The position numbers were made by a program, and so were the translations under genes. The notes below the pieces were generated by a model that ran no database searches, had not been told where the DNA came from, and worked only from the letters and a program-made list of their open reading frames with translations. 29,426 nt of DNA from a virus. Shown in pieces: positions 3,027 through 28,735 of the stretch (its first letter is position 1; the number at the start of each line of letters is the position of its first letter). Location: the UHGV virus genome UHGV-0124752; one strand, 5' to 3'.

Positions 3027-3599
3027 TCAGGGGGATTCATTGCTCTTATTTGCCGGAAATTTTCTATAAATGGTAGAAATGCCCACATCAAAAATCAGTG
3101 CAATACGCTGTCTTGATTCTCCGGCCTCTAGTAAACGTCCAATCTGTGCCCACTGTTCGGTGGTCAACTTAGGACGGCGTCCACCTACTCTGCCTTTGTC
3201 GCGAGCTGCAGCAATCCCCGCCCTGGTACGTTCAACTATCAGTTCGCGTTCCATTTCAGCCAGGGCACCCATGACATGAAAAAAGAAACGGCCCATTGGG
3301 GTACTGGTATCAATACTGTCAGTCAGGCTTCGGAAATTCACGCCACGCTGGCGCAACTCTTCTATCAGCGTAACAAGATGCCGCATACTGCGTCCCAACC
3401 TGTCCAGCTTCCAGACAACCAGCGTGTCACCTGCCGATAGTGTCCTGAGTAGTTTTTTCAGCCCCGGTCTGTCGGACTTAGTGCCACTGATTTTGTCCTC
3501 AAAAATCCGCTCACATCCCGCACAGTTCAGTGCATTGCGTTGCAAATCGGTGTTCTGGTCATTTGTTGACACGCGTACATAGCCAATAAGCATGATCAT
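3027..3599 (-). CDS. Serine DNA invertase, Gin/Pin/Cin/Hin family
   Basis: N-terminus MLIGYVRVSTNDQNTDLQRNAL with catalytic Ser, TLVVWKLDRLGRS and GRFFFHVMGALAEMERELI motifs, C-terminal HTH. True start is probably the third Met (3593). Lies next to an inverted-repeat crossover site. Confidence 0.9.
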   Translation of the reverse strand: MIMLIGYVRVSTNDQNTDLQRNALNCAGCERIFEDKISGTKSDRPGLKKLLRTLSAGDTLVVWKLDRLGRSMRHLVTLIEELRQRGVNFRSLTDSIDTSTPMGRFFFHVMGALAEMERELIVERTRAGIAAARDKGRVGGRRPKLTTEQWAQIGRLLEAGESRQRIALIFDVGISTIYRKFPANKSNESP

Positions 3600-3648
3600 C
3601 CCCCTGAATAAAAACCGGAGATGATGCCAGTTAGCCGTTATCTCTGCA

Positions 3649-3674
3649 TTTTCATAAACGTTGGTTTGGGAGAA
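3649..3674. other. Invertase crossover site 1 (26 bp, gix/hix-like)
   Basis: ttttcataaacgttggtttgggagaa; its reverse complement TTCTCCCAAACCAACGTTTATGAAAA shares 14 identical leading bases with site 2 in inverted orientation. Confidence 0.75.
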
Positions 3675-4022
3675 GCGGCGAAAAGGGATGTAGGCACAGG
3701 AGAAAATCAGATACCGGATATGTCAGCCTGGAAAAGAAATCCGAGTTCTAATCGCTGGAGAAAATTGCCTGATGGAACCATCATTCAAATGGGAATATCA
3801 GCATCAGGGCCATTAGGCTCACCTGTAAATATCACCCTGCCGATATCTTTCAGCAATACCAATTATTGTGTTGTTGCATCGTACGATAATGCACGGTCAG
3901 GTGTGTCAACAATGGTTAGTTTTGCAGCGTTACCTGTTTCACCATCGCAATTTTCCCTAATGTCATCTGTGACTGAGCAAGGAATAAATCCTTTTGCTTA
4001 CTGGATTGCTTTTGGAGATTAA
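3663..4022 (+). CDS. Alternative tail-fibre C-terminal cassette, silent in the present orientation
   Basis: Frame opens at the crossover site with GLGEAAKRDVGTGENQ...; inversion would fuse it in frame to the constant part of H. The ORF-track start at 3621 lies outside the segment and is not a real start. Confidence 0.65.
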   Translation, partial: GLGEAAKRDVGTGENQIPDMSAWKRNPSSNRWRKLPDGTIIQMGISASGPLGSPVNITLPISFSNTNYCVVASYDNARSGVSTMVSFAALPVSPSQFSLMSSVTEQGINPFAYWIAFGD

Positions 4023-4025
4023 TAA

Positions 4026-4439
4026 ATGGACAGATACTTCTATTCACAAAAAGAAAATGGTTTTTTTACCGATTTAAATAAAGCACCTTCAGATGCTGTT
4101 GAGATAACCACGGATGAATGGCTGTTACTACTGGATGGTCAGGATAATGGCATGAAAATAGTCAGCAATCAGGAGGGATATCCGGTTTTGACAGAGCAAC
4201 CACCTTTATCAAAAGAAAACCTTATTGCATTGGCGGATTTGAAAAAAAGAAAACTTATTAATGAAGCCAACGAGCACATGAACAACAGACAATGGCCTGG
4301 TAAAGCGGCTATTGGTCGTCTGAAAAGTGAGGAACTGGCGCAATATAATTTGTGGCTGGATTATCTGGACGCACTGGAACTGGTCGATACTTCCGGTGCG
4401 CCAGATATTGAATGGCCTACGCCTCCGGTGGTGGAGTAA
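4026..4439 (+). CDS. Tail fibre assembly chaperone paired with the alternative cassette
   Basis: 137 aa; N-terminus MDRYFYSQKENGFF and C-terminus LVDTSGAPDIEWPTPPVVE are typical of enterobacterial Tfa proteins; starts 3 bp after the alternative cassette. Confidence 0.8.
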   Translation: MDRYFYSQKENGFFTDLNKAPSDAVEITTDEWLLLLDGQDNGMKIVSNQEGYPVLTEQPPLSKENLIALADLKKRKLINEANEHMNNRQWPGKAAIGRLKSEELAQYNLWLDYLDALELVDTSGAPDIEWPTPPVVE

Positions 4440-4585: not shown

Positions 4586-6268
4586 TCACCAATAAATAAT
4601 TACAATCCCGCTATGACCAGCACCAGTAACTCCGCCAATCTTTTTCGTTGCCAACCCAGCGCCACCACCGCCAGGACCTTTTGCATTACTGCCAACATTC
4701 CCCGCCGAATCTAAAACCTGTCCATGCCCGCCAGGACCACCACCGCTACCTCCGACAGCCGAATCAGTGCCTGCTATCATTGATGCACCAGGAGAGCCAG
4801 GGCCAAGAGACGTATTTATCTGCCCCCCCACACCTTTTCCCCCCGCTCCTCCGGATACCTGCCCCCCACCGTCTCCACCTGTTGCCGAGAGATATGCGCC
4901 AAAACTACTGGTGCCGCCAGGATTTCCATTTCTTGCTGACGTATTTTGACTTTCGCCACCACTGCCTACAGTGATTGTGACGGTGTCAATACCTGTTAAG
5001 TCAATGACGGACTCGCTCACACCACCGCCGCCACCGCCGCCGCCACCGGCAGCGTTCGTTAAGCTTATCGACGGGTAACCGCCAGACCCGCCACCGCCGA
5101 TAACCTTCACCCTGACGCGTCGGCCCTTTTTCACTATGTCAGGAACATTCCAGGTGCTGACGCCTGCATTATCAAATACAGCGCAATTTTGAGCGCCAAA
5201 TGTTGCTTCTCCCAAACCAAGGTATGTGAGAAGACCAGCTACATCCTTTCCACTCAAATTAGTCAGCGTATTGTCCAGCGGTTGTTTACCTGCTAGCGCA
5301 TTAAGCATTGTCGTGGCAAAGTTCGGGTCATTCCCCAGCGCCGCCGCCAGTTCGTTCAATGTATCCAGTGCCGCAGGTGCAGAACCCACCATTCCTGCAA
5401 TCGCCGATTGCACAAAAGCCGTAGTGGCAATCTGTGTATTGTTGACCGACTGTGCCGCAGTAGGTGCTGTTGGCGTTCCGGTAAGTGCCGGACTCGACAG
5501 CGGCGCTTTCAGTGCCAGCGCATTATTAATAGTGGTACTGAATTTCGGGTCATTGTTAATGGCTGCGGCAATTTCTTTCAGTGTGTCCAGCGTGGCTGGC
5601 GCACCGTTAATCAGAGCAGTAATAGCGGCCTGAACAAACTCTGTGGTCGCAATCCGAGTGGTGTTATTTCCTGCTGCAGGCGTCGGCGCTTTTGGTTCTC
5701 CGGTAAATGTCGGATTATGTTTCTGCGCATACTGGGTATGAGGATCTTGTGCGGCAATGTGGTTTCTCATCTGGTCATCCACATACAGCTTTAATTCCAG
5801 GACTTTATCATCCACGTATTTACGGGTTGCCAGCACTACAGCAGGGTCGATTTTCAGGATGATATTGTCCGTGCTGCTGGTAATCAGCACCATGCGCACG
5901 GTCTGGGTACGCCCGCTGCCTTCAGCCAGTTGCGGCTTATAGCTTTCCGGGCAGTTTCCCACGGCAATCAATGCCCCGGACTCATCAAACAGGCCCACTT
6001 CACGTATCCACCAACCGCCCTCGTTTTCAGGGATCACCTGTTCAGCAATAATCTGGCTACTGTTCTGCGGGTCGATATAAAGCATATTCAACGCAGCCCG
6101 GCGTTTCTCATTTACCAGTGCCGTCTGCTTTGCGTCCGGCGTCGGTAATACTCCGCCGCCATCGCCGACCGCCATATGGGTAATTTTTAGCGGCACACCG
6201 AGCGCGGCGGCGCTGGCAAGTTTCGCCGCGCCAATATCCGTCAGCAGGGTATAAAATTTTGTGCTCAT
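4586..6268 (-). CDS. H: Tail fibre protein: constant N-terminal part fused to the currently expressed variable C-terminus
   Basis: 560 aa; N-terminus MSTKFYTLLTDIGAAKLASAAALG matches the P2 H family; crossover site encodes LTYLGLGE at about residue 346; C-terminal part is glycine-rich. Confidence 0.9.
   Translation of the reverse strand: MSTKFYTLLTDIGAAKLASAAALGVPLKITHMAVGDGGGVLPTPDAKQTALVNEKRRAALNMLYIDPQNSSQIIAEQVIPENEGGWWIREVGLFDESGALIAVGNCPESYKPQLAEGSGRTQTVRMVLITSSTDNIILKIDPAVVLATRKYVDDKVLELKLYVDDQMRNHIAAQDPHTQYAQKHNPTFTGEPKAPTPAAGNNTTRIATTEFVQAAITALINGAPATLDTLKEIAAAINNDPKFSTTINNALALKAPLSSPALTGTPTAPTAAQSVNNTQIATTAFVQSAIAGMVGSAPAALDTLNELAAALGNDPNFATTMLNALAGKQPLDNTLTNLSGKDVAGLLTYLGLGEATFGAQNCAVFDNAGVSTWNVPDIVKKGRRVRVKVIGGGGSGGYPSISLTNAAGGGGGGGGGVSESVIDLTGIDTVTITVGSGGESQNTSARNGNPGGTSSFGAYLSATGGDGGGQVSGGAGGKGVGGQINTSLGPGSPGASMIAGTDSAVGGSGGGPGGHGQVLDSAGNVGSNAKGPGGGGAGLATKKIGGVTGAGHSGIVIIYW
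5021..5050. repeat. GGC/GGT codon repeat encoding a poly-glycine run in the fibre tip
   Basis: accaccgccgccaccgccgccgccaccggc on the plus strand; the minus strand encodes AAGGGGGGGGG. Confidence 0.6.
5207..5232. other. Invertase crossover site 2 (26 bp), inside H
   Basis: ttctcccaaaccaaggtatgtgagaa, an inverted copy of site 1 (14 of 26 bases identical from the conserved end). Confidence 0.75.
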
Positions 6269-14710: not shown

Positions 14711-16477
14711 ATGAACACCACACTGACACCCGCAGATCTCGATCCCCGTCGGCAGGCCATGCTGCTGTACTTTCAGGGATACCGCGTAGCCCGCATTGCT
14801 GAAATGCTGGGCGAGAAAGTTGCAACCGTTCACAGCTGGAAAAAACGCGACAAGTGGGGTGACTATGGGCCGCTGGATCAGATGCAGCTCACCACCGCCG
14901 CACGTTACTGCCAGCTCATTATGAAGGAGCACAAAGAAGGGAAAGATTTCAAAGAAATTGATCTGCTGGCGCGCCAGTCGGAGCGCCACGCGCGGATCGG
15001 CAAGTTTAACAATGGCGGCAACGAAGCCGATTTAAACCCTAACGTCGCCAACCGCAACAAAGGCCCGCGCCGTCAGCCTGAAAAGAATGTTTTCACCGAT
15101 GAACAGATTGAGAAGCTGGAAGAAATCTTCCATTCCTCCATGTTCAACTACCAGCGTCACTGGTGGGAAGCCGGAAAAACCAACCGCATCCGCAACCTGC
15201 TGAAGTCACGCCAGATCGGCGCGACCTTCTATTTTGCCCGTGAAGCCCTGATTGACGCCCTGCTAACCGGACGTAACCAGATTTTCCTTTCTGCCAGTAA
15301 GGCACAGGCGCACGTCTTTAAGCAGTACATCATCGACTTCGCCAAAGAAGTGGAAGTGGAGCTGAAAGGCGATCCGATGGTGCTTCCCAACGGGGCCACA
15401 CTGTATTTCCTCGGCACCAATGCCCGCACTGCCCAGAGTTACCACGGCAACCTGTATCTGGATGAATATTTCTGGATACCGAAATTCCAGGAGCTGCGCA
15501 AAGTGGCTTCCGGTATGGCTATTCACAAAAAATGGCGACAAACCTATTTTTCCACGCCATCCAGCCTGACCCACAGTGCTTATCCGTTCTGGTCCGGTGC
15601 GCTGTTCAACCGTGGACGCAACAAAGCCGACAAGGTGGACATCGACCTGTCCCACAGCAATCTGGCCCCCGGCCTGCTGTGCGCAGACGGGCAATACCGC
15701 CAGATAGTCACCGTAGAAGATGCGGTGCGCGGCGGCTGTAACCTGTTCGACCTTGACCAGTTGCGCATGGAATACAGCCCGGACGAATACCAGAACCTGC
15801 TGATGTGTGAGTTCGTGGACGATCTCGCGTCCGTGTTCCCGCTCAGCGAGCTGCAGGCGTGCATGGTGGACAGCTGGGAAGTCTGGACCGACTTTCATGC
15901 ACTGGCCCTGCGCCCGTTTGGCTGGCGCGAAGTGTGGATCGGTTATGACCCGGCAAAAGGTACGCAGAACGGCGACAGCGCCGGATGCGTGGTGGTGGCA
16001 CCGCCAGCCGTGCCGGGCGGTAAGTTCCGCATTCTTGAGCGTCACCAGTGGCGCGGAATGGACTTCCGCGCCCAGGCTGACGCCATCAAAAAACTGACCG
16101 AACAGTATAACGTGACCTATATCGGCATCGACTCGACCGGCGTCGGTCACGGGGTTTACGAGAACGTGAAAGCGTTTTTTCCTGCCGTCCGGGAGTTTGT
16201 CTACAACCCCAACGTTAAAAACGCCCTGGTACTCAAGGCCTACGACATTATCAGTCACCGCCGCCTGGAATTTGACGCCGGACACACCGACATTGCGCAG
16301 TCATTCATGGCAATCCGTCGCGCCACCACCGCCAGCGGCAACCGCCCGACCTATGAAGCCAGCCGCAGCGAAGAAGCCAGCCATGCCGATCTGGCCTGGG
16401 CAACAATGCACGCACTGTTTAACGAACCGCTGCAGGGCGAGTCCGCCAATGCCAGCAATATTGTGGAGATTTTTTGA
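14711..16477 (+). CDS. P: Terminase large (ATPase) subunit
   Basis: 588-aa ORF divergent from O and followed by the portal gene with a 4-bp overlap. Confidence 0.9.
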   Translation: MNTTLTPADLDPRRQAMLLYFQGYRVARIAEMLGEKVATVHSWKKRDKWGDYGPLDQMQLTTAARYCQLIMKEHKEGKDFKEIDLLARQSERHARIGKFNNGGNEADLNPNVANRNKGPRRQPEKNVFTDEQIEKLEEIFHSSMFNYQRHWWEAGKTNRIRNLLKSRQIGATFYFAREALIDALLTGRNQIFLSASKAQAHVFKQYIIDFAKEVEVELKGDPMVLPNGATLYFLGTNARTAQSYHGNLYLDEYFWIPKFQELRKVASGMAIHKKWRQTYFSTPSSLTHSAYPFWSGALFNRGRNKADKVDIDLSHSNLAPGLLCADGQYRQIVTVEDAVRGGCNLFDLDQLRMEYSPDEYQNLLMCEFVDDLASVFPLSELQACMVDSWEVWTDFHALALRPFGWREVWIGYDPAKGTQNGDSAGCVVVAPPAVPGGKFRILERHQWRGMDFRAQADAIKKLTEQYNVTYIGIDSTGVGHGVYENVKAFFPAVREFVYNPNVKNALVLKAYDIISHRRLEFDAGHTDIAQSFMAIRRATTASGNRPTYEASRSEEASHADLAWATMHALFNEPLQGESANASNIVEIF

Positions 16478-17508
16478 TGGGAAAGAGTAAGAAGAACCGC
16501 GCTGCGTCGACGAACCAGAACCAGCATAAAAGCCAGACTTCAGCCGAAGCATTCAGCTTCGGTGATCCCGTTCCTGTTCTGGACCGCCGCGAACTGCTGG
16601 ACTATGTGGAATGCGTACAGATGGATCGCTGGTATGAGCCGCCCGTCAGCTTTGACGGACTGGCACGAACCTTCCGCGCCGCCGTGCATCACAGCTCACC
16701 GATTGCGGTGAAATGCAACATTTTGACCAGCACCTACATCCCTCACCCGCTGCTCAGCCAGCAGGCTTTTTCGCGTTTTGTGCAGGACTATCTGGTTTTT
16801 GGTAACGCCTACCTGGAGAAACGCACGAACCGCTTCGGTGAAGTTATCGCCCTTGAGCCTGCGCTGGCAAAATACACCCGACGCGGGTTAGACCTGGATA
16901 CCTACTGGTTTGTGCAATACGGTATGACAACCCAGCCATATCAGTTCACGAAAGGCAGCATTTTTCATCTGATGGAACCGGACATTAACCAGGAGATCTA
17001 CGGCTTGCCCGGCTATCTTTCTGCCATTCCGTCCGCCCTGCTCAATGAGTCCGCCACGCTGTTCCGTCGAAAGTATTACATTAACGGCAGTCATGCTGGC
17101 TTCATCATGTATATGACCGACGCCGCGCAGAACCAGGAAGATGTGAACAACCTCCGCAACGCGATGAAAAGCGCCAAAGGTCCAGGCAACTTCCGCAACC
17201 TGTTTATGTACTCGCCTAACGGCAAAAAGGACGGGCTTCAGATCATCCCGCTGTCAGAAGTCGCAGCGAAGGATGAATTTCTGAACATCAAGAACGTGAG
17301 CCGGGACGACATGATGGCTGCACACCGTGTGCCGCCGCAAATGATGGGGATTATGCCGAGCAATGTAGGTGGGTTTGGAGATGTGGAGAAGGCCAGTCTG
17401 GTATTTGTACGTAATGAATTAATTTATCTACAAGGGCGATTAAAAGAAGTTAATTCTTGGGTGGGCGAAAAAATTATTTCATTCACCCAATACACTTTAG
17501 ATAATTAA
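16474..17508 (+). CDS. Q: Portal protein
   Basis: 344-aa ORF; the last ~36 codons are visibly AT-rich compared with the rest. Confidence 0.85.
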   Translation: MMGKSKKNRAASTNQNQHKSQTSAEAFSFGDPVPVLDRRELLDYVECVQMDRWYEPPVSFDGLARTFRAAVHHSSPIAVKCNILTSTYIPHPLLSQQAFSRFVQDYLVFGNAYLEKRTNRFGEVIALEPALAKYTRRGLDLDTYWFVQYGMTTQPYQFTKGSIFHLMEPDINQEIYGLPGYLSAIPSALLNESATLFRRKYYINGSHAGFIMYMTDAAQNQEDVNNLRNAMKSAKGPGNFRNLFMYSPNGKKDGLQIIPLSEVAAKDEFLNIKNVSRDDMMAAHRVPPQMMGIMPSNVGGFGDVEKASLVFVRNELIYLQGRLKEVNSWVGEKIISFTQYTLDN

Positions 17509-17559
17509 ATAACAATAAACCCGGTAAACCTTAAACATTGAAAAAGTGTTTGAGGTTAT

Positions 17560-18306
17560 TTAGTTTCTATAATTAGAAATATAGTCATCCATTTTAGCCT
17601 GCTCTATGATTCCACTATTTTTAATATACAAAACATTTGCCCAATCAAAATACTCACAAAGAATAACAATCATAGTCAAAAGCTTTTCATCAGTCATATT
17701 TATTAACAGCTCATATTGCTCAGCTTTTTTTTCACTTTCAACTTTATCATCTATCAACTTCACCAAAAGATAAAATCTTCTTACCAAAGAGAAAAAATGA
17801 TCATCAACATCTAAACTTTCCAACCATGCAATGATTCTTTTCTTTTCTATTCCAGCTCTAACCAAGATGCTCAAGTTATCATCAATGAAAGTTATAGCAT
17901 TATTAGATCTATACTCAATAAGTGTAGGTTCTTTGGTCCCCCCCCCTTTACTTTCATCATCATTATCTGCTCCATTACCGATTACAATACGCAATTTATT
18001 ATAATTAGAATCTTGAGATTCAATTAGACAGAAAAACCTCACTTCAAATTTTTTGTAATCTTCAAGTAACTCTTGTCTTTTTATCTCTTGTTTCAATGTT
18101 GAGTTAGACTGCACTTGTAAAGTTACAGAGCGAATCAGCAGGCAAATCGAGATAAAACTTAGTATAGGATTCAGGACCCCACCCATGAAGTCCCCAAATT
18201 GCCCCCAAACATCAGCATCTTGAGTACTTAAGTACCAGGGGCCAAACTTAATACAATAAACCCCCAAAACTATTATTATGAGAGCTAAACAAATTATTTT
18301 TAACAT
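17560..18306 (-). CDS. Cargo protein, unknown function: two N-terminal transmembrane helices plus a cytoplasmic domain
   Basis: 248 aa; hydrophobic helices LKIICLALIIIVLGVYCI and GGVLNPILSFISICLLI; AT-rich codon usage unlike the phage core; start 1 nt after the upstream gene's stop. Confidence 0.7.
   Translation of the reverse strand: MLKIICLALIIIVLGVYCIKFGPWYLSTQDADVWGQFGDFMGGVLNPILSFISICLLIRSVTLQVQSNSTLKQEIKRQELLEDYKKFEVRFFCLIESQDSNYNKLRIVIGNGADNDDESKGGGTKEPTLIEYRSNNAITFIDDNLSILVRAGIEKKRIIAWLESLDVDDHFFSLVRRFYLLVKLIDDKVESEKKAEQYELLINMTDEKLLTMIVILCEYFDWANVLYIKNSGIIEQAKMDDYISNYRN
17938..17946. repeat. Homopolymeric C9 tract (G9 on the coding strand) inside the membrane-protein gene
   Basis: ctttggt ccccccccc tttac; the minus strand reads aaa ggg ggg ggg acc, encoding KGGGT in frame. 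Confidence 0.8.
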
Positions 18307-18307
18307 C

Positions 18308-19126
18308 TTACTGCACCGTATGCACTAAATATTTCACAGTTTCCCCACTGTTAATTATTACCCGACTTACAGTCAGTTCAAGATAAATATAGCCAGCAGT
18401 GGAAGGCGGATTATTTACATGTAAGTTAGCCGAAATCATTCTTTTTTGAGCTGGAATGATGACACGTAAGGGGCTATAAAACCCAAATGCCACCGTATCA
18501 TTTTCGCCCTCAAGAACAAGCCTACCATTGCCAGTGCGAGCATTAAATCTTGTAATATAAGCCCTGATTACTTCAGTCTTTTTTAAAACACGTGATGTGA
18601 ATAAATTTGTTGCAGTAGATGTATCTAATTCAATTACTTTTTTCTTATCATGGGCACGCTGTTTAAAATTTAACTCGATATTATAGTTTTTTTTGAGATT
18701 AATTTCATGCATTCTTTTTAGAGGAGCTCGAATACGACCTATCAACTCATCCTCAATATCCGATAAACCTTTAACTACTTCTTCCGCTTCATTGGAAAGT
18801 TCGCGACTCTCTAAATATAATGATTGCGAAATAAAGAAACTCATCACTTCATTAAATACTGGTTTAGATATTTTGCGAAGTTCTGATACCAGTTCAGCAT
18901 CATTAATAACCAAGTCAAAATTTTGACCATAAGAACCGGTGAAATTCCTCTTGAGTACAGCCCTTGCAGGATTTACATGAGAGCGGCGCTTTATTATTAC
19001 TTTCCTAAGTATAGCCTCCGCCAACAAGCAAGTAACCTCTGCAGTTCCTGCAAGCGTGTCGAGACCGTATTCCATATCTACTTCATCATCGCCGCTTTTG
19101 ATAATAACATCGTAATTAACTCGCAT
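18308..19126 (-). CDS. Cargo protein, unknown function (soluble, 272 aa), first gene of a two-gene operon
   Basis: AT-rich ORF with RBS aaggaaag ahead of the ATG; I recognise no family motif. Confidence 0.7.
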   Translation of the reverse strand: MRVNYDVIIKSGDDEVDMEYGLDTLAGTAEVTCLLAEAILRKVIIKRRSHVNPARAVLKRNFTGSYGQNFDLVINDAELVSELRKISKPVFNEVMSFFISQSLYLESRELSNEAEEVVKGLSDIEDELIGRIRAPLKRMHEINLKKNYNIELNFKQRAHDKKKVIELDTSTATNLFTSRVLKKTEVIRAYITRFNARTGNGRLVLEGENDTVAFGFYSPLRVIIPAQKRMISANLHVNNPPSTAGYIYLELTVSRVIINSGETVKYLVHTVQ

Positions 19127-19453: not shown

Positions 19454-19687
19454 TTAATGCAGCCAGCTGTCGTCTTCCCACACCTTCTGCATAATTTTCA
19501 TCACTTGTTTTCTTTCTTCGTCCAGTTGCAGTCCGGTTAGTTCCACACCGTTAGAGCTACCTTTGCGAATGCGAATTACCGTTTTGGGATACAGGGGGCG
19601 CAGATTGCGGTAAAGCTCGGATTCAAGGGCGTCCAGGGTAGACTGGCTAATCTTCTGCTCTTTATCGATCATTATTTCAATGCGCAT
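19454..19687 (-). CDS. DinI-family protein
   Basis: MRIEIMIDKEQKISQSTLDALESELYRNLRPLYP...KVWEDDSWLH resembles DinI (MRIEVTIAK...ETWESADDWF); start placed at the Met with RBS gaggtg. ORF track gives 19454..19759. Confidence 0.75.
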   Translation of the reverse strand: MRIEIMIDKEQKISQSTLDALESELYRNLRPLYPKTVIRIRKGSSNGVELTGLQLDEERKQVMKIMQKVWEDDSWLH

Positions 19688-19697
19688 AAAAGTCACC

Positions 19698-19886
19698 TCA
19701 GCTGATGACATCCATTGAGCGGTTGTATTCGTGGGTTCTGATTTTTGCCATGAGTTCATCAGTCAATTCAGAAACCCACTGCAGAGCCAGCCCCTTCTCT
19801 TCATCACTACACTCACTAGCCGCTACAAGCTTAAGAAAAAAATCAATGCGCTGGAGCTTCAAAGACTCCAAAAAATAGTCCTGCAT
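19698..19886 (-). CDS. Small protein (62 aa) directly downstream of a LexA box; candidate antirepressor
   Basis: MQDYFLESLKLQRIDFFLKLVAASECSDEEKG...; strong RBS aggagg; start chosen inside ORF-track entry 19698..19988. Confidence 0.5.
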   Translation of the reverse strand: MQDYFLESLKLQRIDFFLKLVAASECSDEEKGLALQWVSELTDELMAKIRTHEYNRSMDVIS

Positions 19887-20039: not shown

Positions 20040-22454
20040 TTAATACAGGTTCCGCCAATGATCATCTTCCTGCAAACGCTGGTTCCGATAGAAGATACGC
20101 AGGCCTGCTCCTGACGGAATACTGCCTCCGCGAAGGAGTAAATCGACCTCTTTCTCGCTGCCATCAAATCCTCTGGACTTCAGCTCATACACGAGCTGCA
20201 GTCGCTGATGGTCTGTAATTCGCTGTTTGTAGTCTTTACGCCGTTTCGGTTTCACCAGGCATAACCTTGCTGCCAGTTCCCGGCGCTCTTTTTTGCTCAT
20301 ACTGTGCAGGTAATCGTGCAACTCCTTGTCATCCATGCTGGTAATGTCCGTTCTGGGGTCCCCATCAGCTGATTTATCTTTCTCCTGTTGGTTCAAATTT
20401 TCAGCAAGGGGACAGTTATTGCCACGAGTCCAAGGGGCGCAAGCGCCCTGGTCGGCTGCCGCCTCCTGAACGTCAACGGCCTTACGAACCATTTTCCACT
20501 TCACCGCATGAGTGCAGATCTTGCCCTCTGCAATGGGTGACCAGATGCCATAAATACGAATACCGTGATCGCCATATGCGGTCGGTTCTTCGTTGATTTC
20601 ATAAGCAGTTCTGATGAGGTGATATTTGCGGGGAACCAGTACGCCGCCCTGCTTCATGATGTAGGTGGCAAAACAACCAGCATCAGCAGCAGCCAGGATT
20701 GCATCAAGGCGCGGGTTATCCAGTACCGGCGCACCTGCTTTTTTGTCCCCCTGTTGCCTTGCCGCCTGACCAGCCAGCAATCGCAGTTCACGGTAAGCCT
20801 GACGCCCCGGAATGCCAAAGAAGCGGAATTGCTGAACACGATGCAGAGACGCCCAGGCATTAACGTATTCAGCGTTATCACGCAGGGATTTACCCGTTTC
20901 CTTGCTGATCTCGCCAGCCAGACCACGCCCGTCAATGTTCTTACTGATGTATTTCGCGATGTAGCTTGTTGGCGTACCTTTGCGCGGGTTTATCAGCTCA
21001 GACTTAAAGCGTGGTCCCGTGTTATTACCCAGCTCCTCGCGGTCTTCACGAATGGCAAACTTACGCAACAAAGCAGTAATGGTGCGGCGATCTTTTTTGC
21101 GCATAAAACACAACAGGTGCCAGTGAACTGTACCGTCATGATGCGGCTCAGCCACCCGCACGCCATACCAGCGCAATCCGGCTTTGTGCATCGCCTTACG
21201 AAATGCAGCAAACATGCCGACCAGATAATCACTGCTTTGTCTTACCGTCGTATTTGTCCAGGTCGGGTTGGGCCTGCCGTTATTTAGCGTGGAATGGAAA
21301 CGTGACGGACAGGTGATGGTGTAGAAAACGGCGCAGTCACCGCGCATTTCCGCGATAAGCTCCAGACCTTTAACACAGGCCATCATCTCATTGCGGCGAT
21401 GCGCAGGGTTGCTGCTGCTGGCGTTTACCACATCCTCCATGTCCAGCGTGTCGCCGTCTTCGTTCACCAGTTCATGAGAACGGAAAAACTCCAGCGACTT
21501 ACGGCGCTGCTCACGTTTATGCATCACGGCTTCATAGCTGACATAGGGAGATGCTTTTTTGCTGACCAGGCAAACAGCACGCAACTGCTCTTCCCGCCAT
21601 TCGCAACGCATCTTCCATAATTTCCGGTACCACCAATCGGCGCACAACATACGCGCCAGCGAACCCGGAATGAGTTTATAGGGCACGGGTTTACGGCGGT
21701 TTCTTTTCCGGCGGAGTTGCTCAAACGCAGGCGGTATGACATCCAGTCGCAGGGTTTCTGCTGCCACCTTTTCCCATGTCTTGCGGATTTCTTCTGGCTT
21801 AACGTCATCGGTGGCATACAAATCGCCACAAGCTGCATCAAGGCACATGCTCATATGCGCAGCAACAAGGGTGGACAGGCGTTTCACCTGATCCTGACTC
21901 ATTTCAGGTAGGATCAGCAGGCCGTCCAGCCCTTCATGGCTTGCCATAAAGCGAAAAGAAGTGGATAGCTGACTGTCGCGTACATGCTCCAGCCGTTCCA
22001 GACATGGCTTAATCGTCTCACGCAAATAGCGGGAATAAGCCTTTGGCCTGCCAAGGCTGCTGAAGTATTCAATACGTTGCATCAGCGGCCTGCTGATATG
22101 GGAAGGCTGGGCGTTAACGTCTGCCAGAATGACCATGTCCGGGTTAAAACGCTGCTGCTCATGCGCCAACTTTGCCCGGCTAATGAGCTTATCCTGCTCC
22201 ATTTCGCGCTGGACAGGATCACGGGATTCATTAAAGAAATAACGCTCCCAAACCTGATCACTCAGTGCCTCGCGGCGCAGTTGTTCCTGCTCGTTATCGG
22301 CAGCGTACAGAGTGATCAGGTTTGAAAGCGCAGAAACCGGCGCAACTTCCGCCGGGTCCAGATAAGGGTTAATAGCCTTTTTCGGGCTGTTCCATGAGAA
22401 TGCTGCGGCGGCCTCGTTAAAGCCGCTGCAGTTGTTCATATCAGCATGGCTCAT
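20040..22454 (-). CDS. A: Replication initiation protein (rolling-circle type)
   Basis: 804-aa ORF in the early operon, in the position of P2/186 gene A. Confidence 0.85.
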
Positions 22455-23308
22455 GCACGCACTCCGTACACGGCAGAACTATCCACGCCACGCGAAGGAT
22501 CAAATCCCACCCAGCAGCGCGGCCCGGAAACAGCGATGATTTCTGTTGCAGATTTACTCTCGCCAGCCGACACGCCGATGCTGCGTTTTGCCTTGATGTA
22601 GTGGTGAGTGAAATTTCGATACAGCGAACGGATCAGGGATGTGTCACTGTTAGAAACAATGACTGGATGACCTTCTGATGATCGATATTCAAGAACAGAT
22701 GCCAGGTGATACTGGTCATCTTCAGTGAAGCCGTCAGTGTGATAGCCGGAAAACGTACCGTCATAAGGCGGATCGCAATACACCACATCCCCCACCTGCA
22801 GCATCGCCAGCGTTTCATCAAAGCTTGCGCAGATAAACGTTGCTCGCTGGGCTTTCTCTGCAAATGCGCGAATTTCTTTTTCAGGGAAATACGGATTTTT
22901 ATAATTACCGTATGGAATGTTGAAATGCCCGCTCTTGTTATAACGACATAACCCACGGTAACCATGACGATTGAGATACAGGAAATATACCGCTTTCATG
23001 AAATCAGTAATTTCAGTTGAGTAATTAAACTCCTGCCTTATGTTGTAATAAGCCACCTCCCTGTTTGCTTCCTTAAATAAAACTCTGGCGCGAGATATAA
23101 ACGATTCACAATCAGCGGCAACCTTTTTATAGAGGTTGATTAAATCAGGATTAATATCCGCAACCAGATAGCTTGGATAATCCGTCGCCATCATCACAGC
23201 ACAGGAACCCGCGAAAGGTTCAACCAGTCGCGGGCCAGCAGGAAGGTGTTTTTTCAGTTCGGACATAATTGCGGTTTTATTTCCCGCCCATTTCAGGATG
23301 GTGCTCAT
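22451..23308 (-). CDS. Dam-like N6-adenine DNA methyltransferase
   Basis: LKWAGNK near the N-terminus, VEPFAGS AdoMet motif, DPPY catalytic motif; collinear with E. coli Dam. Start placed at [11 protein letters not shown]. Confidence 0.85.
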
Positions 23309-23532
23309 ACAGCACCTCCGTTGTAATGTTTGCCTTTCAGCTCTGCGATTTCCTGACAGGTAATGCAAAGCTGCACACCTGGAATGGCGCGGCGGCGTGC
23401 TGGCGGAATTGGCGCTTCACACTCAATGCAAAGCACGCGGGACACGCCCGGCATTTTGGCACGGGCAGCACGGATATGGCGCTGGCGTTCTTCTTCAACG
23501 CGCTGCTGTACGAGATCCATTGCATCAGCCAT
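23305..23532 (-). CDS. TraR/DksA-family C4 zinc-finger protein
   Basis: 75 aa with CIECEAPIP...CITCQ (four Cys in two CxxC pairs). Confidence 0.7.
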   Translation of the reverse strand: MADAMDLVQQRVEEERQRHIRAARAKMPGVSRVLCIECEAPIPPARRRAIPGVQLCITCQEIAELKGKHYNGGAV

Positions 23533-25478: not shown

Positions 25479-26048
25479 GTGACCATGAATTTGGAAAAAG
25501 GCGGTCGTGGGGCCATAGAGCGCATGGTTGAAGCCTATGGTTTCAAGACAAGACAAGCTTTGTGTGATCATTTGGGCATTTCTAAAAGCACCTTAGCCAC
25601 GCGCTATATGCGTGATTCATTCCCGGCAGAATGGGTAATCCAATGTGCACTTGAAACCGGCACGTCGCTAGAGTGGCTAACTACTGGGCAAGGTTCAAAA
25701 GAAAGTTCACAAAAAGAAAACACAAAAGAGATCGAAAGGAAGATTTTATCAAGCGGAAAACTACTTCCTGATGGTTACTACATTTTCGACAACAACTTTT
25801 TGCCTGAAAAACTAAAAAAACCTTTTGTTGTGATCGATGGCGCATCAGAGTTTATCTGTGATTCGGATTATGAGGATGTACGTGATGGTAAGTGGATCGT
25901 TGATATTGATGGCGAGGTTGCTATCAGGAATCTGACAAGACTGCCGGGGCGTCGTCTAAATGTCGATGGTGGCAGCAGTTCCTTTGAATGCAAAATAGAT
26001 GAAATTGATATCATAGGAAAAATTAGAAGCGCGATCGTCAATTATTAA
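25479..26048 (+). CDS. cI: Immunity repressor, phage 186 CI type
   Basis: 189 aa; ...EAYGF...[15 protein letters not shown]... N-terminal HTH region and [23 protein letters not shown]-terminal region resemble 186 CI. Confidence 0.8.
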
Positions 26049-26257: not shown

Positions 26258-26268
26258 GGTTGCTTCAT

Positions 26269-27600
26269 ATGAATAATGATATGACTTTTGAAAACAGAGA
26301 TGAGTATAATAGAAAAATCATTGCTGAAAAAATAATAAGCTTACTCGAGTCCCCCTTAAAAATATCCCCTATTGTTATCGATGGGGACTGGGGTACCGGT
26401 AAAACCGAATTTTCAAAAAAATTAGCGGCATTGATTGAAAAAAATGAATCTGGGCATAAAGTAGTATATATTGATGCATTTACTGAAGATCATAATGATG
26501 CTCCCATACTTACTATAATGGCTGCAATAGTTGCATTATATCCAGAGAGTGAAAAGAAGGAATTAATATCAAAGGCATTACCAGCATTGAGATTTGGACT
26601 TAAAACTGTACTCAAAGCTGGCGCTGGGTGGATTTTAAAACAAAATGCAGATGATATTGCGGATGAATTCGAAGATGCTATTAAAGATGCGGCTAACTCA
26701 GCTATAGATGGTACTGTAGAAGCACTGCTTGATGATCATATTGAAGCAAAGAAACATTTGCTTGCTCTCAAGGAAGTACTTGCTGAACTAACTAGCGAAA
26801 ATAAAATAACAATTATCATTGACGAACTTGACCGTTGTAAACCAAGCTTTGCCATCTCTATCATCGAAAATATAAAACATGTTTTTGACACTGAAAATCT
26901 TAACTTCTTGTTAGTTGCTAACATCTCACAATTGAAAGCATCAATAAATCATATTTACGGTGCAGGTGTTGACTCAGAAAGATATCTTGATAAATTTATA
27001 AAATTCACTTACAGCCTGCCAGTGACTTTCACTGAAAACAATTACGATAAAATTTTGGCTTCGAACTCTCATTTTAGAATGCTATGTAACGAGTCTGAAA
27101 GACTAAAAGAAATTGGAGAAAGTAGTATTCATATAGTTCAAAAATTTATCGAACTAAAAGGCTTGTCGCTACGGGAAGTTGAAACCTTATCAAGATATCT
27201 AGAAATTTATCAAATTTTATCTCAAAATGAAATCAGCAATAAATTTATACCAGGCTATTGCTGTTATCGAACCCTTGCAGTAATTCTTTATTCGTTTGGT
27301 CGTGAACTGGCCCTTAACTACGTAGAAGATAAAATAGATGCACAATTAATAATTAATTTCTTCGGTGTTAATAGACTCCCATATCAGACAGATCAATATA
27401 ACATCAACATCTACTATTATGCATTATTTGGTATAACTTATAAATATATGCCAGAAGGTTCTCCTTTACTTCCTTCTGAAAACGATGAAAAAAACAGATG
27501 GGCTGAAATAAGTGATTATCATATTTTAAAAGGAAATGCAGGTGTAGAAGACCCTGTTAGAATATTCAAAAACACCTTAAAAGTTTTCTTGCTCCAATGA
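26269..27600 (+). CDS. KAP-family P-loop NTPase
   Basis: Walker A IDGDWGTGKTEF and Walker B IIIDELDRC; AT-rich. ORF track starts at a TTG (26260); ATG 26269 has an RBS. Confidence 0.8.
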   Translation: MNNDMTFENRDEYNRKIIAEKIISLLESPLKISPIVIDGDWGTGKTEFSKKLAALIEKNESGHKVVYIDAFTEDHNDAPILTIMAAIVALYPESEKKELISKALPALRFGLKTVLKAGAGWILKQNADDIADEFEDAIKDAANSAIDGTVEALLDDHIEAKKHLLALKEVLAELTSENKITIIIDELDRCKPSFAISIIENIKHVFDTENLNFLLVANISQLKASINHIYGAGVDSERYLDKFIKFTYSLPVTFTENNYDKILASNSHFRMLCNESERLKEIGESSIHIVQKFIELKGLSLREVETLSRYLEIYQILSQNEISNKFIPGYCCYRTLAVILYSFGRELALNYVEDKIDAQLIINFFGVNRLPYQTDQYNINIYYYALFGITYKYMPEGSPLLPSENDEKNRWAEISDYHILKGNAGVEDPVRIFKNTLKVFLLQ

Positions 27601-27682: not shown

Positions 27683-28735
27683 ATGGCAGTACGAAAACTC
27701 ACCACAGGAAAATGGCTGTGCGAATGTTATCCCGCCGGACGTAGTGGACGTCGTGTGCGTAAACAATTCGCCACCAAAGGCGAAGCTCTGGCTTTTGAGC
27801 GTCACACGATGGAAGAAACCGAAGCAAAGCCTTGGCTAGGTGAATCAGTGGCTCGTCGAACACTGAAAGACGTGGTTGAGCTATGGTTCAAATTACATGG
27901 TAAATCTCTGACTGCTGGGCAGCATGTCTATGACAAATTGCTGCTGATGGTTGACGCTCTGGGCAATCCTCTTGCAACCGATCTCACCTCTAAAATGTTT
28001 GCCCACTATCGAGATAAACGCCTGACAGGTGAGATCTACTTCAGCGAGAAATGGAAGAAAGGAGCCAGCCCGGTCACCATTAACCTGGAGCAAAGCTATC
28101 TAAGTAGTGTTTTTAGCGAACTATCCCGCCTGGGCGAATGGTCGTATCCAAACCCACTGGAGAACATGCGAAAATTCACCATCGCAGAAAAAGAGATGGC
28201 ATGGCTTACCCATGAGCAGATTGTTGAACTGCTGGCTGATTGCAAACGTCAGGACCCAATTCTGGCACTGGTAGTCAAGATATGCTTAAGCACAGGCGCA
28301 CGCTGGCGAGAAGCAATAAACCTTACCCGATCACAGGTGACTAAATACCGAATTACCTTTGTAAGAACGAAGGGGAAGAAAAACAGAAGCATCCCTATCA
28401 GTAAAGAGCTTTATGAAGAGATCATGGCGCTTGATGGGTTCAATTTCTTCACAGACTGCTATTTTCAATTTTTATCCGTGATGGAAAAAACGTCAATCGT
28501 GCTCCCTCGCGGTCAACTGACACACGTTCTGCGCCATACGTTTGCGGCACATTTCATGATGTCGGGTGGAAATATCCTTGCTTTGCAAAAAATCCTCGGA
28601 CATCACGATATAAAAATGACTATGCGTTACGCTCATCTGGCACCGGATCATCTGGAAACGGCGCTCCGTTTCAATCCTCTGGCAACGCTGCCAAGTGGCG
28701 ACAAAGTGGCGGCAGCGGTTGGCATTACCCCGTAA
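27683..28735 (+). CDS. int: Tyrosine integrase (P2 family)
   Basis: 350 aa with the conserved C-terminal catalytic region (ARWREA, HVLRHTFA, MTMRYAHL with Tyr). Confidence 0.9.
   Translation: MAVRKLTTGKWLCECYPAGRSGRRVRKQFATKGEALAFERHTMEETEAKPWLGESVARRTLKDVVELWFKLHGKSLTAGQHVYDKLLLMVDALGNPLATDLTSKMFAHYRDKRLTGEIYFSEKWKKGASPVTINLEQSYLSSVFSELSRLGEWSYPNPLENMRKFTIAEKEMAWLTHEQIVELLADCKRQDPILALVVKICLSTGARWREAINLTRSQVTKYRITFVRTKGKKNRSIPISKELYEEIMALDGFNFFTDCYFQFLSVMEKTSIVLPRGQLTHVLRHTFAAHFMMSGGNILALQKILGHHDIKMTMRYAHLAPDHLETALRFNPLATLPSGDKVAAAVGITP

What the first reader, a model, noticed from the sequence alone, without database searches (positions are those of the whole stretch)
17938..17946. G9 homopolymer inside the membrane-protein gene: possible phase-variable switch
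The coding strand carries nine consecutive G (KGGGT) in an otherwise AT-rich gene. Tracts this long are rare in enterobacterial coding sequence and are prone to slipped-strand mispairing, so a single-base change would truncate the putative effector. That would give an ON/OFF switch for a possibly toxic defence gene. It is also a classic site for sequencing error.
Basis: partly seen in the sequence, partly recalled or inferred. Interest (0 to 1): 0.55.

Follow-up and report, generated by a model that had tools for sequence, protein, structure and literature searches.

The report
Slippage-prone G9 run in prophage defence gene
A run of nine G's sits in a floppy loop of a membrane protein carried by a P2-like prophage; public genomes do hold a few one-base-shorter or one-base-longer copies with a broken gene, so it is a real mutation hotspot, but nothing shows it is an evolved on/off switch.

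Summary
Window 17938-17946 is C9 on the + strand, so G9 on the coding (-) strand. It reads as three in-frame GGG codons (Gly121-123) of a 248-aa ORF (17560-18306, 32% GC).

The gene is a divergent AbiC-like two-TM membrane protein. It is the second gene of a conserved two-gene cassette in the gpQ-gpA defence hotspot of a P2/186-like prophage.

Among about 400 public contigs with this allele, about 2% carry G8 (137-aa product, 6 contigs) or G10 (130-aa product, 3 contigs). These arose on at least four distinct backgrounds, and each checked G8 locus has a G9 twin with identical flanks.

The pattern does not look like a classical phase-variable locus:
- Only ±1 variants exist. G6, G7, G11 and G12 products are absent.
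- About 95% of the contigs counted keep the reading frame at the tract (about 2% carry other lesions).
- The tract is confined to this allele lineage.
- It lies in a disordered, hypervariable insertion loop.
- Other lesions (5-bp repeat deletion, IS1) break the gene about as often.

Best reading: an accidental, slippage-prone tract that occasionally makes null alleles of a probably costly effector. Evolved phase variation is unproven, and assembly error cannot be excluded for some variants.

The parts
17938..17946 (-). G9 homopolymer (C9 on the + strand). It forms codons 121-123, GGG GGG GGG, of the effector gene and is the site of natural -1 (G8) and +1 (G10) frameshift alleles. Base substitutions that interrupt or extend the run also fall in or next to it: G7TG at 17939 and, by inference from the protein variants, G7AG and GRG inside the run, and A->G at 17937, just 3' of the run on the coding strand, which extends it to an in-frame G10.
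17560..18306 (-). Effector gene, 248 aa, 32% GC. It has two N-terminal TM helices (about aa 1-27 and 39-66) carrying the WGQFGDxxGGxxNPILSF motif, then a long helix, then a beta-hairpin whose tip loop (aa 113-124, pLDDT below 50) holds the GGG, then a helical C-terminal domain. It is a divergent AbiC-like (putAbiC) protein.
   Evidence: PHROG 8999, unknown function
18308..19126 (-). Upstream partner gene, 272 aa, cytosolic. The model has an N-terminal alpha/beta+helical domain (weak DUF7946) and a C-terminal OB-like beta-barrel (weak DUF7947). It lies immediately upstream of the effector (1-nt gap here) and is found there in 17 of 17 full-length homologue loci from species-representative genomes.
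   Evidence: PHROG 13337
17835..17847 (-). GAAAA GAAAA (GAA) tandem 5-bp repeat in the effector gene. Loss of one unit is the change inferred from the 165-aa truncated variant P0052 (5 contigs). It is a second slippage-type lesion site in the same gene.
   Evidence: inferred from the protein sequence; the DNA of those contigs was not seen
17725..17732 (-). A8 run in the effector gene (T8 on the + strand). No frameshift variant at this run was seen among the cluster members listed.
16474..17508 (+). Portal protein gpQ. It is the left border of the P2-family gpQ-gpA cargo hotspot.
20040..22454 (-). Replication endonuclease gpA. It is the right border of the hotspot; a DinI-like gene at 19454-19759 lies between it and the cassette.

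Best explanation
The G9 run is a lineage-specific mononucleotide tract in a structurally unconstrained insertion loop of an AbiC-like membrane effector. It was most likely acquired by accident. The effector belongs to a two-gene candidate abortive-infection cassette carried as cargo in the gpQ-gpA hotspot of a P2/186-like prophage. The tract behaves as a replication-slippage hotspot. Gain or loss of one G shifts the frame at codon 124 and yields a 137-aa (G8) or 130-aa (G10) product. That product keeps both TM helices but lacks the C-terminal putAbiC-like domain, so the system is presumably dead. Such null alleles arise recurrently and are seen at low frequency (about 2% of assemblies), as recent tip events. 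This makes the tract the most frequent single way, among the variants seen, of switching off a probably costly gene. It is best described as 'mutation-prone variation', not as demonstrated phase variation. Shown: the tract, the frame consequences, the natural +-1 alleles on independent backgrounds, the confinement to one lineage, the position in the loop, and the homology and genomic context. Inferred: slippage as the cause, the loss of function of the truncated products, the defence function and its cost, and the rate.
For: (1) G8 with a split gene occurs in two complete genomes: L003 (EC590, CP016182.2) and L012 (CP016012). (2) L003 is identical in its flanks to the G9 loci L008 and L002. 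L012 is identical to the G9 locus L010. L003 and L012 differ from each other at 51 of 1747 nt on the gpA side and by an extra two-gene module. This points to two independent events. (3) The 137-aa G8 product is on 6 contigs. Accessions are listed from at least seven submissions for it or for its 104-aa downstream ORF, and the product is also on record in the Logan reassemblies. (4) The 130-aa G10 product occurs on two protein backgrounds: P0060 (RILIG, 2 contigs) and P0165 (RIVIG, 1 contig). (5) Variable sites cluster at the tract: 3 of 14 variable sites in 1692 nt fall within 10 nt (Poisson P about 9e-5). Four substitution alleles lie in or next to the run: KGGE, KGGV, KGRG and KGGGA. (6) The AlphaFold model puts aa 113-124 at pLDDT below 50, at a hairpin tip. 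That loop is hypervariable in length and sequence across 40 homologues, and hhalign treats 'skgggtkep' as an insertion. (7) Sister alleles at 75-79% identity encode the loop with GGA GGA or with no glycine. None of 17 distant homologues has a G/C run longer than 6. (8) In mismatch-repair-defective E. coli, four 8-bp G:C runs collected 95 indels in about 250,000 generations, roughly 1e-4 per run per generation, and the indel rate rises exponentially with run length (PMC8510543).
Against: The two complete genomes with G8 date from 2016 and their sequencing platform could not be checked; long-read consensus errors typically delete a base in such runs. I could not fetch the draft contigs that carry G8 or G10, so their read support is unknown. 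Contig counts come from a partly listed cluster (15 of 73 members shown) and may contain duplicates or clonal isolates. No experiment shows that the cassette defends against phage or that the effector is costly. The gene-level improbability of the tract (about 1e-3) and the use of GGG for all three glycines (about 0.02) leave room for selection having favoured the tract.
Confidence: 0.65

Rival explanations
1. Evolved phase-variable (contingency) switch. On this view the G9 tract has been selected because reversible ON/OFF switching of the Abi effector lets lysogen populations hedge between phage immunity and the cost or autoimmunity of the system.
For: Both OFF lengths (G8 and G10) occur in nature on independent backgrounds. 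OFF alleles are tip events with ON twins, as expected if they are short-lived or revert. The tract is locally improbable and uses the GGG codon three times. An A->G change just 3' of the run on the coding strand lengthens it to G10 in about 30 contigs. Simple-repeat phase variation of defence genes (restriction-modification systems) is established in other bacteria (PMC11868660).
Against: Only about 2% of contigs are OFF, and no G6, G7, G11 or G12 alleles exist among 15 billion proteins. Classical contingency loci show broad tract-length polymorphism. Substitutions that interrupt the tract (KGGE, KGGV, KGRG; about 19 contigs) are as common as OFF alleles, which argues against selection to keep the run. 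The tract is absent from all other alleles and homologues. Non-tract lesions (5-bp deletion, IS1, N-terminal replacement) are about as frequent. A sister allele has its partner gene broken at a poly-A run, which suggests generic decay at homopolymers. The expected rate in mismatch-repair-proficient E. coli is probably below 1e-5 (inference plus general knowledge). Reversibility is untested.
Confidence: 0.15
2. The tract is genetically stable, and the G8 and G10 alleles in databases are sequencing or assembly errors at a difficult homopolymer.
For: Both complete-genome G8 cases are 2016-era assemblies (accessions CP016182 and CP016012). The frequency is low (about 2%). Only +-1 errors are seen, which is what consensus errors look like.
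Against: The same 137-aa product and its 104-aa downstream ORF are deposited from at least seven accessions, including draft and TPA assemblies. The 137-aa product and both 130-aa G10 products are also on record in the uniform Logan reassemblies of raw runs. Both -1 and +1 occur. No frameshift at the A8 runs was seen among the effector members (15 of 73) and partner members (15 of 29) that were listed. EC590 kept G8 in its revised record version (.2). Base substitutions also cluster at the tract, and homopolymer-length miscalling does not explain those.
Confidence: 0.15
3. Expression-level slippage. RNA polymerase or the ribosome slips on the G9 run, so that in-frame and out-of-frame alleles both give mixtures of full-length and truncated protein (programmed recoding).
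For: Long homopolymers can cause transcriptional slippage in E. coli (general knowledge). G8 alleles persist in at least two lineages.
Against: Known bacterial cases use A or T runs (general knowledge, not tested here). No conserved downstream stimulatory element was looked for or seen. Homologues lack the run altogether, so the family does not need recoding.
Confidence: 0.04

Closest known systems
'Mutation-prone' homopolymers that are not classed as phase variation: the group A streptococcus mga 8C->7C tract, the N. meningitidis siaD 7C tract and M. tuberculosis homopolymer indels (as discussed in PMC11868660)
   Same: A coding mononucleotide run of borderline length, occasional frameshift null alleles that may be beneficial, a rate probably below the classical threshold, reversibility not shown, and a tract that could be there by chance.
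   Different: Here the gene is prophage cargo, a candidate anti-phage effector, in E. coli. The evidence is purely comparative, with no culture or infection data.
[quoted passage not shown]
   Same: An intragenic poly-G/C run whose +-1 slippage turns a phage-defence-related gene off or on.
   Different: Those loci show wide tract-length polymorphism, measured rates of 1e-5 to 1e-2, demonstrated reversibility, and hosts with many such tracts or weak mismatch repair. None of these is shown here, and the population pattern (about 95% in frame at the tract, only +-1 variants) differs.
Lactococcal AbiC / Pfam PF16872 (putAbiC) abortive-infection membrane proteins
   Same: An N-terminal two-TM module followed by a helical C-terminal domain. 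Profile-profile match of 99.8% probability to proteins that pass the Pfam putAbiC cut-off. Location in a phage-defence hotspot.
   Different: The window protein itself does not reach the Pfam threshold. It is always paired with an upstream 272-aa OB-like protein. The mechanism of AbiC is itself unknown, and no phenotype has been tested.
Cargo systems of the P2 gpQ-gpA hotspot (old/tin and the systems of Rousset et al. 2022, PMC9122126)
   Same: The same insertion point between portal gpQ and replication gene gpA, low GC, a short two-gene cassette, and a transmembrane putative effector.
   Different: No match to any PADLOC v2 model. This cassette is not among the experimentally validated systems in the section of that paper that I read.

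Membership tests
Phase-variable locus (criteria of PMC11868660) | Switching is caused by a genetic change at the single locus itself | tested here: met
   G8 and G10 alleles differ from G9 twins only at the tract. L003 versus L008/L002 and L012 versus L010 have identical flanks.
Phase-variable locus (criteria of PMC11868660) | Reversible switching observed in both directions without selection | not testable with these tools
   This needs culture experiments. Comparative data show only ON->OFF tip events.
Phase-variable locus (criteria of PMC11868660) | Switching rate at or above about 1 in 1e5 without selection | not testable with these tools
   Indirect only. G8 runs mutate at about 1e-4 per generation in mismatch-repair-defective E. 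coli. The wild-type rate is expected to be about two orders of magnitude lower (general knowledge), so it is probably below the threshold for G9.
Phase-variable locus (comparative-genomic signature) | Broad tract-length polymorphism and a substantial OFF fraction among strains | tested here: not met
   About 386 in-frame contigs against 9 frameshifted ones (2.2%). Only +-1 variants occur. The G6, G7, G11 and G12 products are absent from the 15-billion-protein collection.
AbiC-like / Pfam PF16872 putAbiC | Match to the Pfam model above its gathering score | tested here: not met
   No Pfam hit for the window protein or for any of 25 close homologues, even at E<=5.
AbiC-like / Pfam PF16872 putAbiC | Homology to bona fide PF16872 proteins over the TM module and the C-terminal domain | tested here: met
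   Relatives that share the WGQFGD..NP TM motif score 42-76 bits against putAbiC (cut-off 22). hhalign of A3 against A6 gives probability 99.8%, E 7.7e-29, over aa 2-218.
AbiC-like / Pfam PF16872 putAbiC | Abortive-infection phenotype against phage | not testable with these tools
P2 gpQ-gpA hotspot defence cargo (Rousset 2022) | Location between portal gpQ and replication gene gpA of a P2-like prophage, with variable content between otherwise near-identical phages | tested here: met
   Portal at 16474-17508, the cassette, DinI, then gpA at 20040-22454. 1254 E. coli genomes match only the conserved cassette-DinI intergenic stretch at the end of the query, and only 5 match the cassette. Neighbouring modules differ between loci.
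Known defence systems (PADLOC-DB v2) | Significant match of either protein to a model of a described system | tested here: not met
   Only a weak ZorB hit over the TM helix (E 3e-4) and PDC-M43A (E 0.009) for the effector. The partner has no hit.

The most novel reading that the evidence does not exclude
The poly-G run is a selected, reversible ON/OFF switch for a prophage-borne AbiC-like effector. That would be the first simple-repeat phase-variable abortive-infection system in E. coli. It would let lysogen populations keep a minority of defence-OFF cells, and it would become a fast switch in natural mismatch-repair mutators. In addition, the two-gene cassette (OB-like sensor plus AbiC-like two-TM effector) would be a new, widespread defence system of Proteobacteria.
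Probability: 0.12. Interest if true: 0.6.

Novelty: new member of a known kind. Interest (0 to 1): 0.36.

Why it matters
If the tract slips as the comparative data suggest, it is the single most frequent way seen here by which this prophage cargo gene is lost. That gives a concrete, cheaply testable case of how lysogens shed, and perhaps regain, a costly defence effector. It bears on the recent claim that defence pseudogenes are rare in P2 and P4 elements (PMC13586616). It also warns annotators that split 137-aa and 104-aa 'hypothetical proteins' at this locus are one gene. Separately, the conserved pair of an OB-like protein and an AbiC-like membrane protein is an uncharacterised candidate defence system worth cloning. 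If the variants prove to be assembly errors, the finding reduces to a sequencing caveat.

Tried and rejected
- Pfam, PADLOC, NCBIfam and PHROGs scans of both cassette proteins gave no functional family.
- The ZorB hit covers a TM helix only and was rejected.
- Sequence-profile searches of the PDB found nothing for either protein.
- The afdb50 fold library was unavailable.
- Exact-pattern scans for the left flank of the tract found nothing in metagenome, GTDB-representative or IMG/VR contigs.
Independent backgrounds therefore had to be inferred from the partner-protein look-up and from protein backgrounds.
- I considered that lesions hit only the effector, which would suggest an antitoxin-like partner. 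I dropped this after finding an A9->A8 frameshift in the partner gene of a sister allele.
- The sequencing platform of EC590 and CP016012 could not be established from the literature.
- Lee et al. 2012, which holds the wild-type run-length rates, is not in the library.

Full report
**1. Observation**

The + strand carries nine consecutive C at exactly 17938-17946. On the - strand this is AAA GGG GGG GGG ACC. These are codons 120-124 (K-G-G-G-T) of ORF 17560..18306, 248 aa, and the run starts in frame 0. It is the only G/C run of 8 or more in the window.

At whole-window composition the run is not rare: 15 of 100 dinucleotide shuffles contain a G9 or C9. The window is about 52% GC overall, however, and the gene is 32% GC with 21.6% G. 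At the gene's own composition the expectation is 6e-4 to 2e-3. Given a Gly-Gly-Gly peptide, three GGG codons have probability of about 0.018 under the cassette's own glycine codon usage. In E. coli K-12, 8-bp G:C runs are already called outliers (PMC8510543).

The tract is locally unusual but not impossibly so.

**2. Context**

The window is a P2-family prophage of the 186/Fels-2 type, judged by its CI and CII regulators. It contains:
- terminase gpP (14711-16477, +);
- portal gpQ (16474-17508, +);
- a 33%-GC two-gene cassette on the - strand (18308-19126, 272 aa; 17560-18306, 248 aa);
- a DinI-like gene (19454-19759);
- replication gene gpA (20040-22454).

The gpQ-gpA interval is the old/tin locus of P2. 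It has been documented as a hotspot of anti-phage cargo, with 1,650 gene arrangements in E. coli (PMC9122126). In line with that, 1254 of 5426 complete E. coli genomes match only the conserved stretch between the cassette and DinI at the end of my query, and only 5 carry the cassette.

**3. What the gene is**

The 248-aa protein has two N-terminal hydrophobic helices, at about aa 1-27 and 39-66. They carry an almost invariant WGQFGDxxGGxxNPILSF motif. A long helix follows, then a beta-hairpin, then a helical C-terminal domain (AlphaFold mean pLDDT 85).

No Pfam, PADLOC or NCBIfam family is matched. Both cassette proteins fall in PHROGs of unknown function. No solved structure resembles the effector.

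The TM motif is widespread in Proteobacteria. Several of the proteins that share it pass the Pfam cut-off for PF16872, putAbiC, 'putative phage abortive infection protein'. A profile-profile comparison of the window family with those proteins gives 99.8% probability, E 7.7e-29, over residues 2-218. The effector is therefore a divergent AbiC-like membrane protein. It is homologous to the family but does not pass the Pfam model.

The partner lies directly upstream of the effector in 17 of 17 full-length homologue loci from species-representative genomes. These range from Pectobacterium and Aeromonas to Bordetella and Janthinobacterium.

My inferred mechanism is that the cytosolic partner senses infection or restrains the effector, and that the two-TM AbiC-like protein damages the membrane (abortive infection). 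No step of this is shown.

**4. Where the tract sits in the protein**

Gly121-123 lie in residues 113-124. This is the only segment of the model with pLDDT below 50, and it forms the tip of the hairpin. The loop is the most variable part of the family in both length and sequence. hhalign treats 'skgggtkep' as an insertion relative to the family profile.

Sister alleles at 75-79% identity encode this loop with GAG GGA GGA AAG or with no glycine at all. None of 17 distant homologues has a G/C run longer than 6.

The tract is therefore recent, specific to this allele lineage, and located where protein-level constraint is minimal.

**5.

*Loci whose DNA I could read.* Fifteen loci carry the same allele:
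- eight have G9, one of them with IS1A inserted in the gene (L002);
- two have G8 with the gene split into 137-aa and 104-aa ORFs (L003 = EC590, and L012 = CP016012);
- one has G7TG (L006);
- three have G10 made by an A->G substitution just 3' of the run on the coding strand, which stays in frame (Thr->Ala);
- one has G9 plus a nearby SNP (L014).

*The protein cluster.* In the 90%-identity cluster (73 members):

| Variant | Consequence | Contigs |
|---|---|---|
| G9 (the window's protein) | in frame | 329 |
| KGGGA, two forms | in frame (G10 by substitution) | 14 and 16 |
| KGGE | in frame, run interrupted | 12 |
| KGGV | in frame, run interrupted | 5 |
| KGRG | in frame, run interrupted | 2 |
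| G8 product, 137 aa | frameshift | 6 |
| G10 product, 130 aa, background RILIG | frameshift | 2 |
| G10 product, 130 aa, background RIVIG | frameshift | 1 |

The 104-aa downstream ORF of the G8 alleles is also recorded on 6 contigs, under further accessions.

Exact look-ups of the products predicted for G6, G7, G11 and G12, and for frameshifts on the KGGGA background, found nothing. Roughly 9 of 404 contigs (2.2%) are frameshifted at the tract.

*Independent origins.* L003 (G8) has flanks identical to the G9 loci L008 and L002. L012 (G8) has flanks identical to the G9 locus L010. L003 and L012 differ at 51 of 1747 nt on the gpA side and by an extra two-gene module. Together with the two G10 backgrounds, this means at least four independent events, all of them recent.

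*Clustering of variation.* Three of the 14 variable sites in the 1692-nt cassette fall within 10 nt at the tract (P about 9e-5). G tracts are reported to raise substitution rates at and next to the run (PMC10710837). That fits the A->G change next to the tract.

**6. Is it phase variation?**

A recent review sets three criteria (PMC11868660):
- a genetic change at a single locus;
- reversibility without selection;
- a rate detectable without selection, about 1e-5.

It explicitly excludes borderline tracts such as GAS mga 8C, MenB siaD 7C and the M. tuberculosis homopolymers, which it calls 'mutation-prone adaptive variation'.

Only the first criterion is met here.

The comparative signature also differs from contingency loci. 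About 95% of the contigs counted are in frame at the tract, only +-1 steps occur, and alleles that interrupt the tract are as frequent as OFF alleles.

Other lesions of the same gene are about as common:
- loss of one copy of a GAAAA repeat (5 contigs);
- a replaced N-terminus (4 contigs);
- an IS1 insertion.

In a sister allele the partner gene is broken at a poly-A run, A9 to A8. Decay at homopolymers in this AT-rich cargo is therefore generic, not specific to the effector.

For rate, mismatch-repair-defective E. coli accumulated 95 indels in four G8 runs over about 250,000 generations. That is about 1e-4 per run per generation, and the rate rises exponentially with run length. Mismatch repair lowers indel rates by roughly two orders of magnitude. 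A G9 in a wild-type host would then slip at perhaps 1e-6, below the phase-variation threshold but above the typical inactivation rate of the rest of a small gene. In natural mutator strains it would behave as a fast switch.

**7. Caveat on artefacts**

The window's own G9 is in frame and identical to the allele on 329 contigs, so it is not an error.

For the variants, both complete-genome G8 cases are 2016-era records of unknown platform. I could not retrieve the draft contigs.

Four points argue against a pure-artefact reading:
- accessions from at least seven submissions are listed for the G8 products, and the 137-aa product is also on record in the Logan reassemblies;
- both +1 and -1 variants occur;
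- base substitutions are concentrated at the same spot;
- no frameshift at the A8 runs appears among the members listed.

**8. Verdict**

The tract is a genuine, lineage-specific slippage hotspot in the disordered loop of an AbiC-like effector of an uncharacterised two-gene prophage cassette, and it produces natural null alleles at low frequency.

| Reading | Confidence |
|---|---|
| Accidental slippage hotspot ('mutation-prone' locus) | about 0.65 |
| Evolved phase-variable switch | about 0.15 |
| Database variants are assembly artefacts | about 0.15 |
| Expression-level slippage | below 0.05 |

Novelty is modest: a new member of a known kind. Interest is about 0.36. Most of that comes from how easily the idea can be tested and from the uncharacterised cassette itself.

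Noticed in passing
window 3027-4439 and 4586-6268: A serine invertase (Resolvase + HTH_7, E 8e-53; 3027-3599, -) lies next to an alternative tail-fibre C-terminus (3621-4022, +) and a tail-fibre assembly gene (4026-4439, +). These face the main tail-fibre gene (4586-6268, -). This is a Gin/Cin-type invertible host-range segment, that is, a bona fide phase-variation device in the same prophage.
   Followed up: partly
window 26260-27600: A 446-aa KAP P-loop NTPase at 33% GC, between the CI-type repressor (25479-26048) and the integrase (27683-28735). It matches the PADLOC candidate system PDC-S20 at E 1e-171, so it is a second candidate defence cargo in the prophage. A KAP NTPase also sits next to the cassette in the sister-allele locus L098 (1-1771).
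   Followed up: partly
window 22451-23368: An orphan Dam-class N6-adenine methyltransferase directly upstream of gpA (Pfam MethyltransfD12, E 3e-76; PADLOC orphan MTase).
   Followed up: no
L100-L103 (for example L102 971-1788): In a sister allele found in metagenomes, the 272-aa partner gene is split into 163-aa and 109-aa ORFs by a one-base loss in a poly-A run (GAC AAAAAAAA G TGA, A8 where an intact frame needs A9). The effector gene there is intact and has no G tract.
   Followed up: partly
L002 3294-4033 (NZ_OW968288.1): IS1A is inserted inside the effector gene of an otherwise G9 allele, splitting it into 80-aa and 182-aa annotated ORFs.
   Followed up: partly
L001, L002, L003, L008 (for example L001 4859-5916): An extra pair of hypothetical genes (280 aa + 71 aa) lies between the cassette and DinI in some prophages and is absent from the window. 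It shows modular swapping inside the hotspot.
   Followed up: no
L005 and L015 (for example L005 1592-6154): Here the cassette sits in a degraded prophage remnant next to ybjL: portal and gpD are truncated and ogr is present. A ComF-family phosphoribosyltransferase plus a hypothetical gene lie alongside, reminiscent of the DprA-PRTase system validated by Rousset et al. 2022.
   Followed up: no
window 17527-17557: A 13-bp-stem hairpin lies in the 51-nt gap between the convergent portal and effector genes. It is a likely bidirectional terminator.
   Followed up: no
L033-L095 (for example L036 4959-5738, L038 4914-5738): The N-terminal two-TM module with the WGQFGDxxGG..NP motif is fused to varied C-terminal domains in many Proteobacteria, and only some of these proteins pass Pfam putAbiC. 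The AbiC-like superfamily looks much broader than the Pfam model captures.
   Followed up: partly
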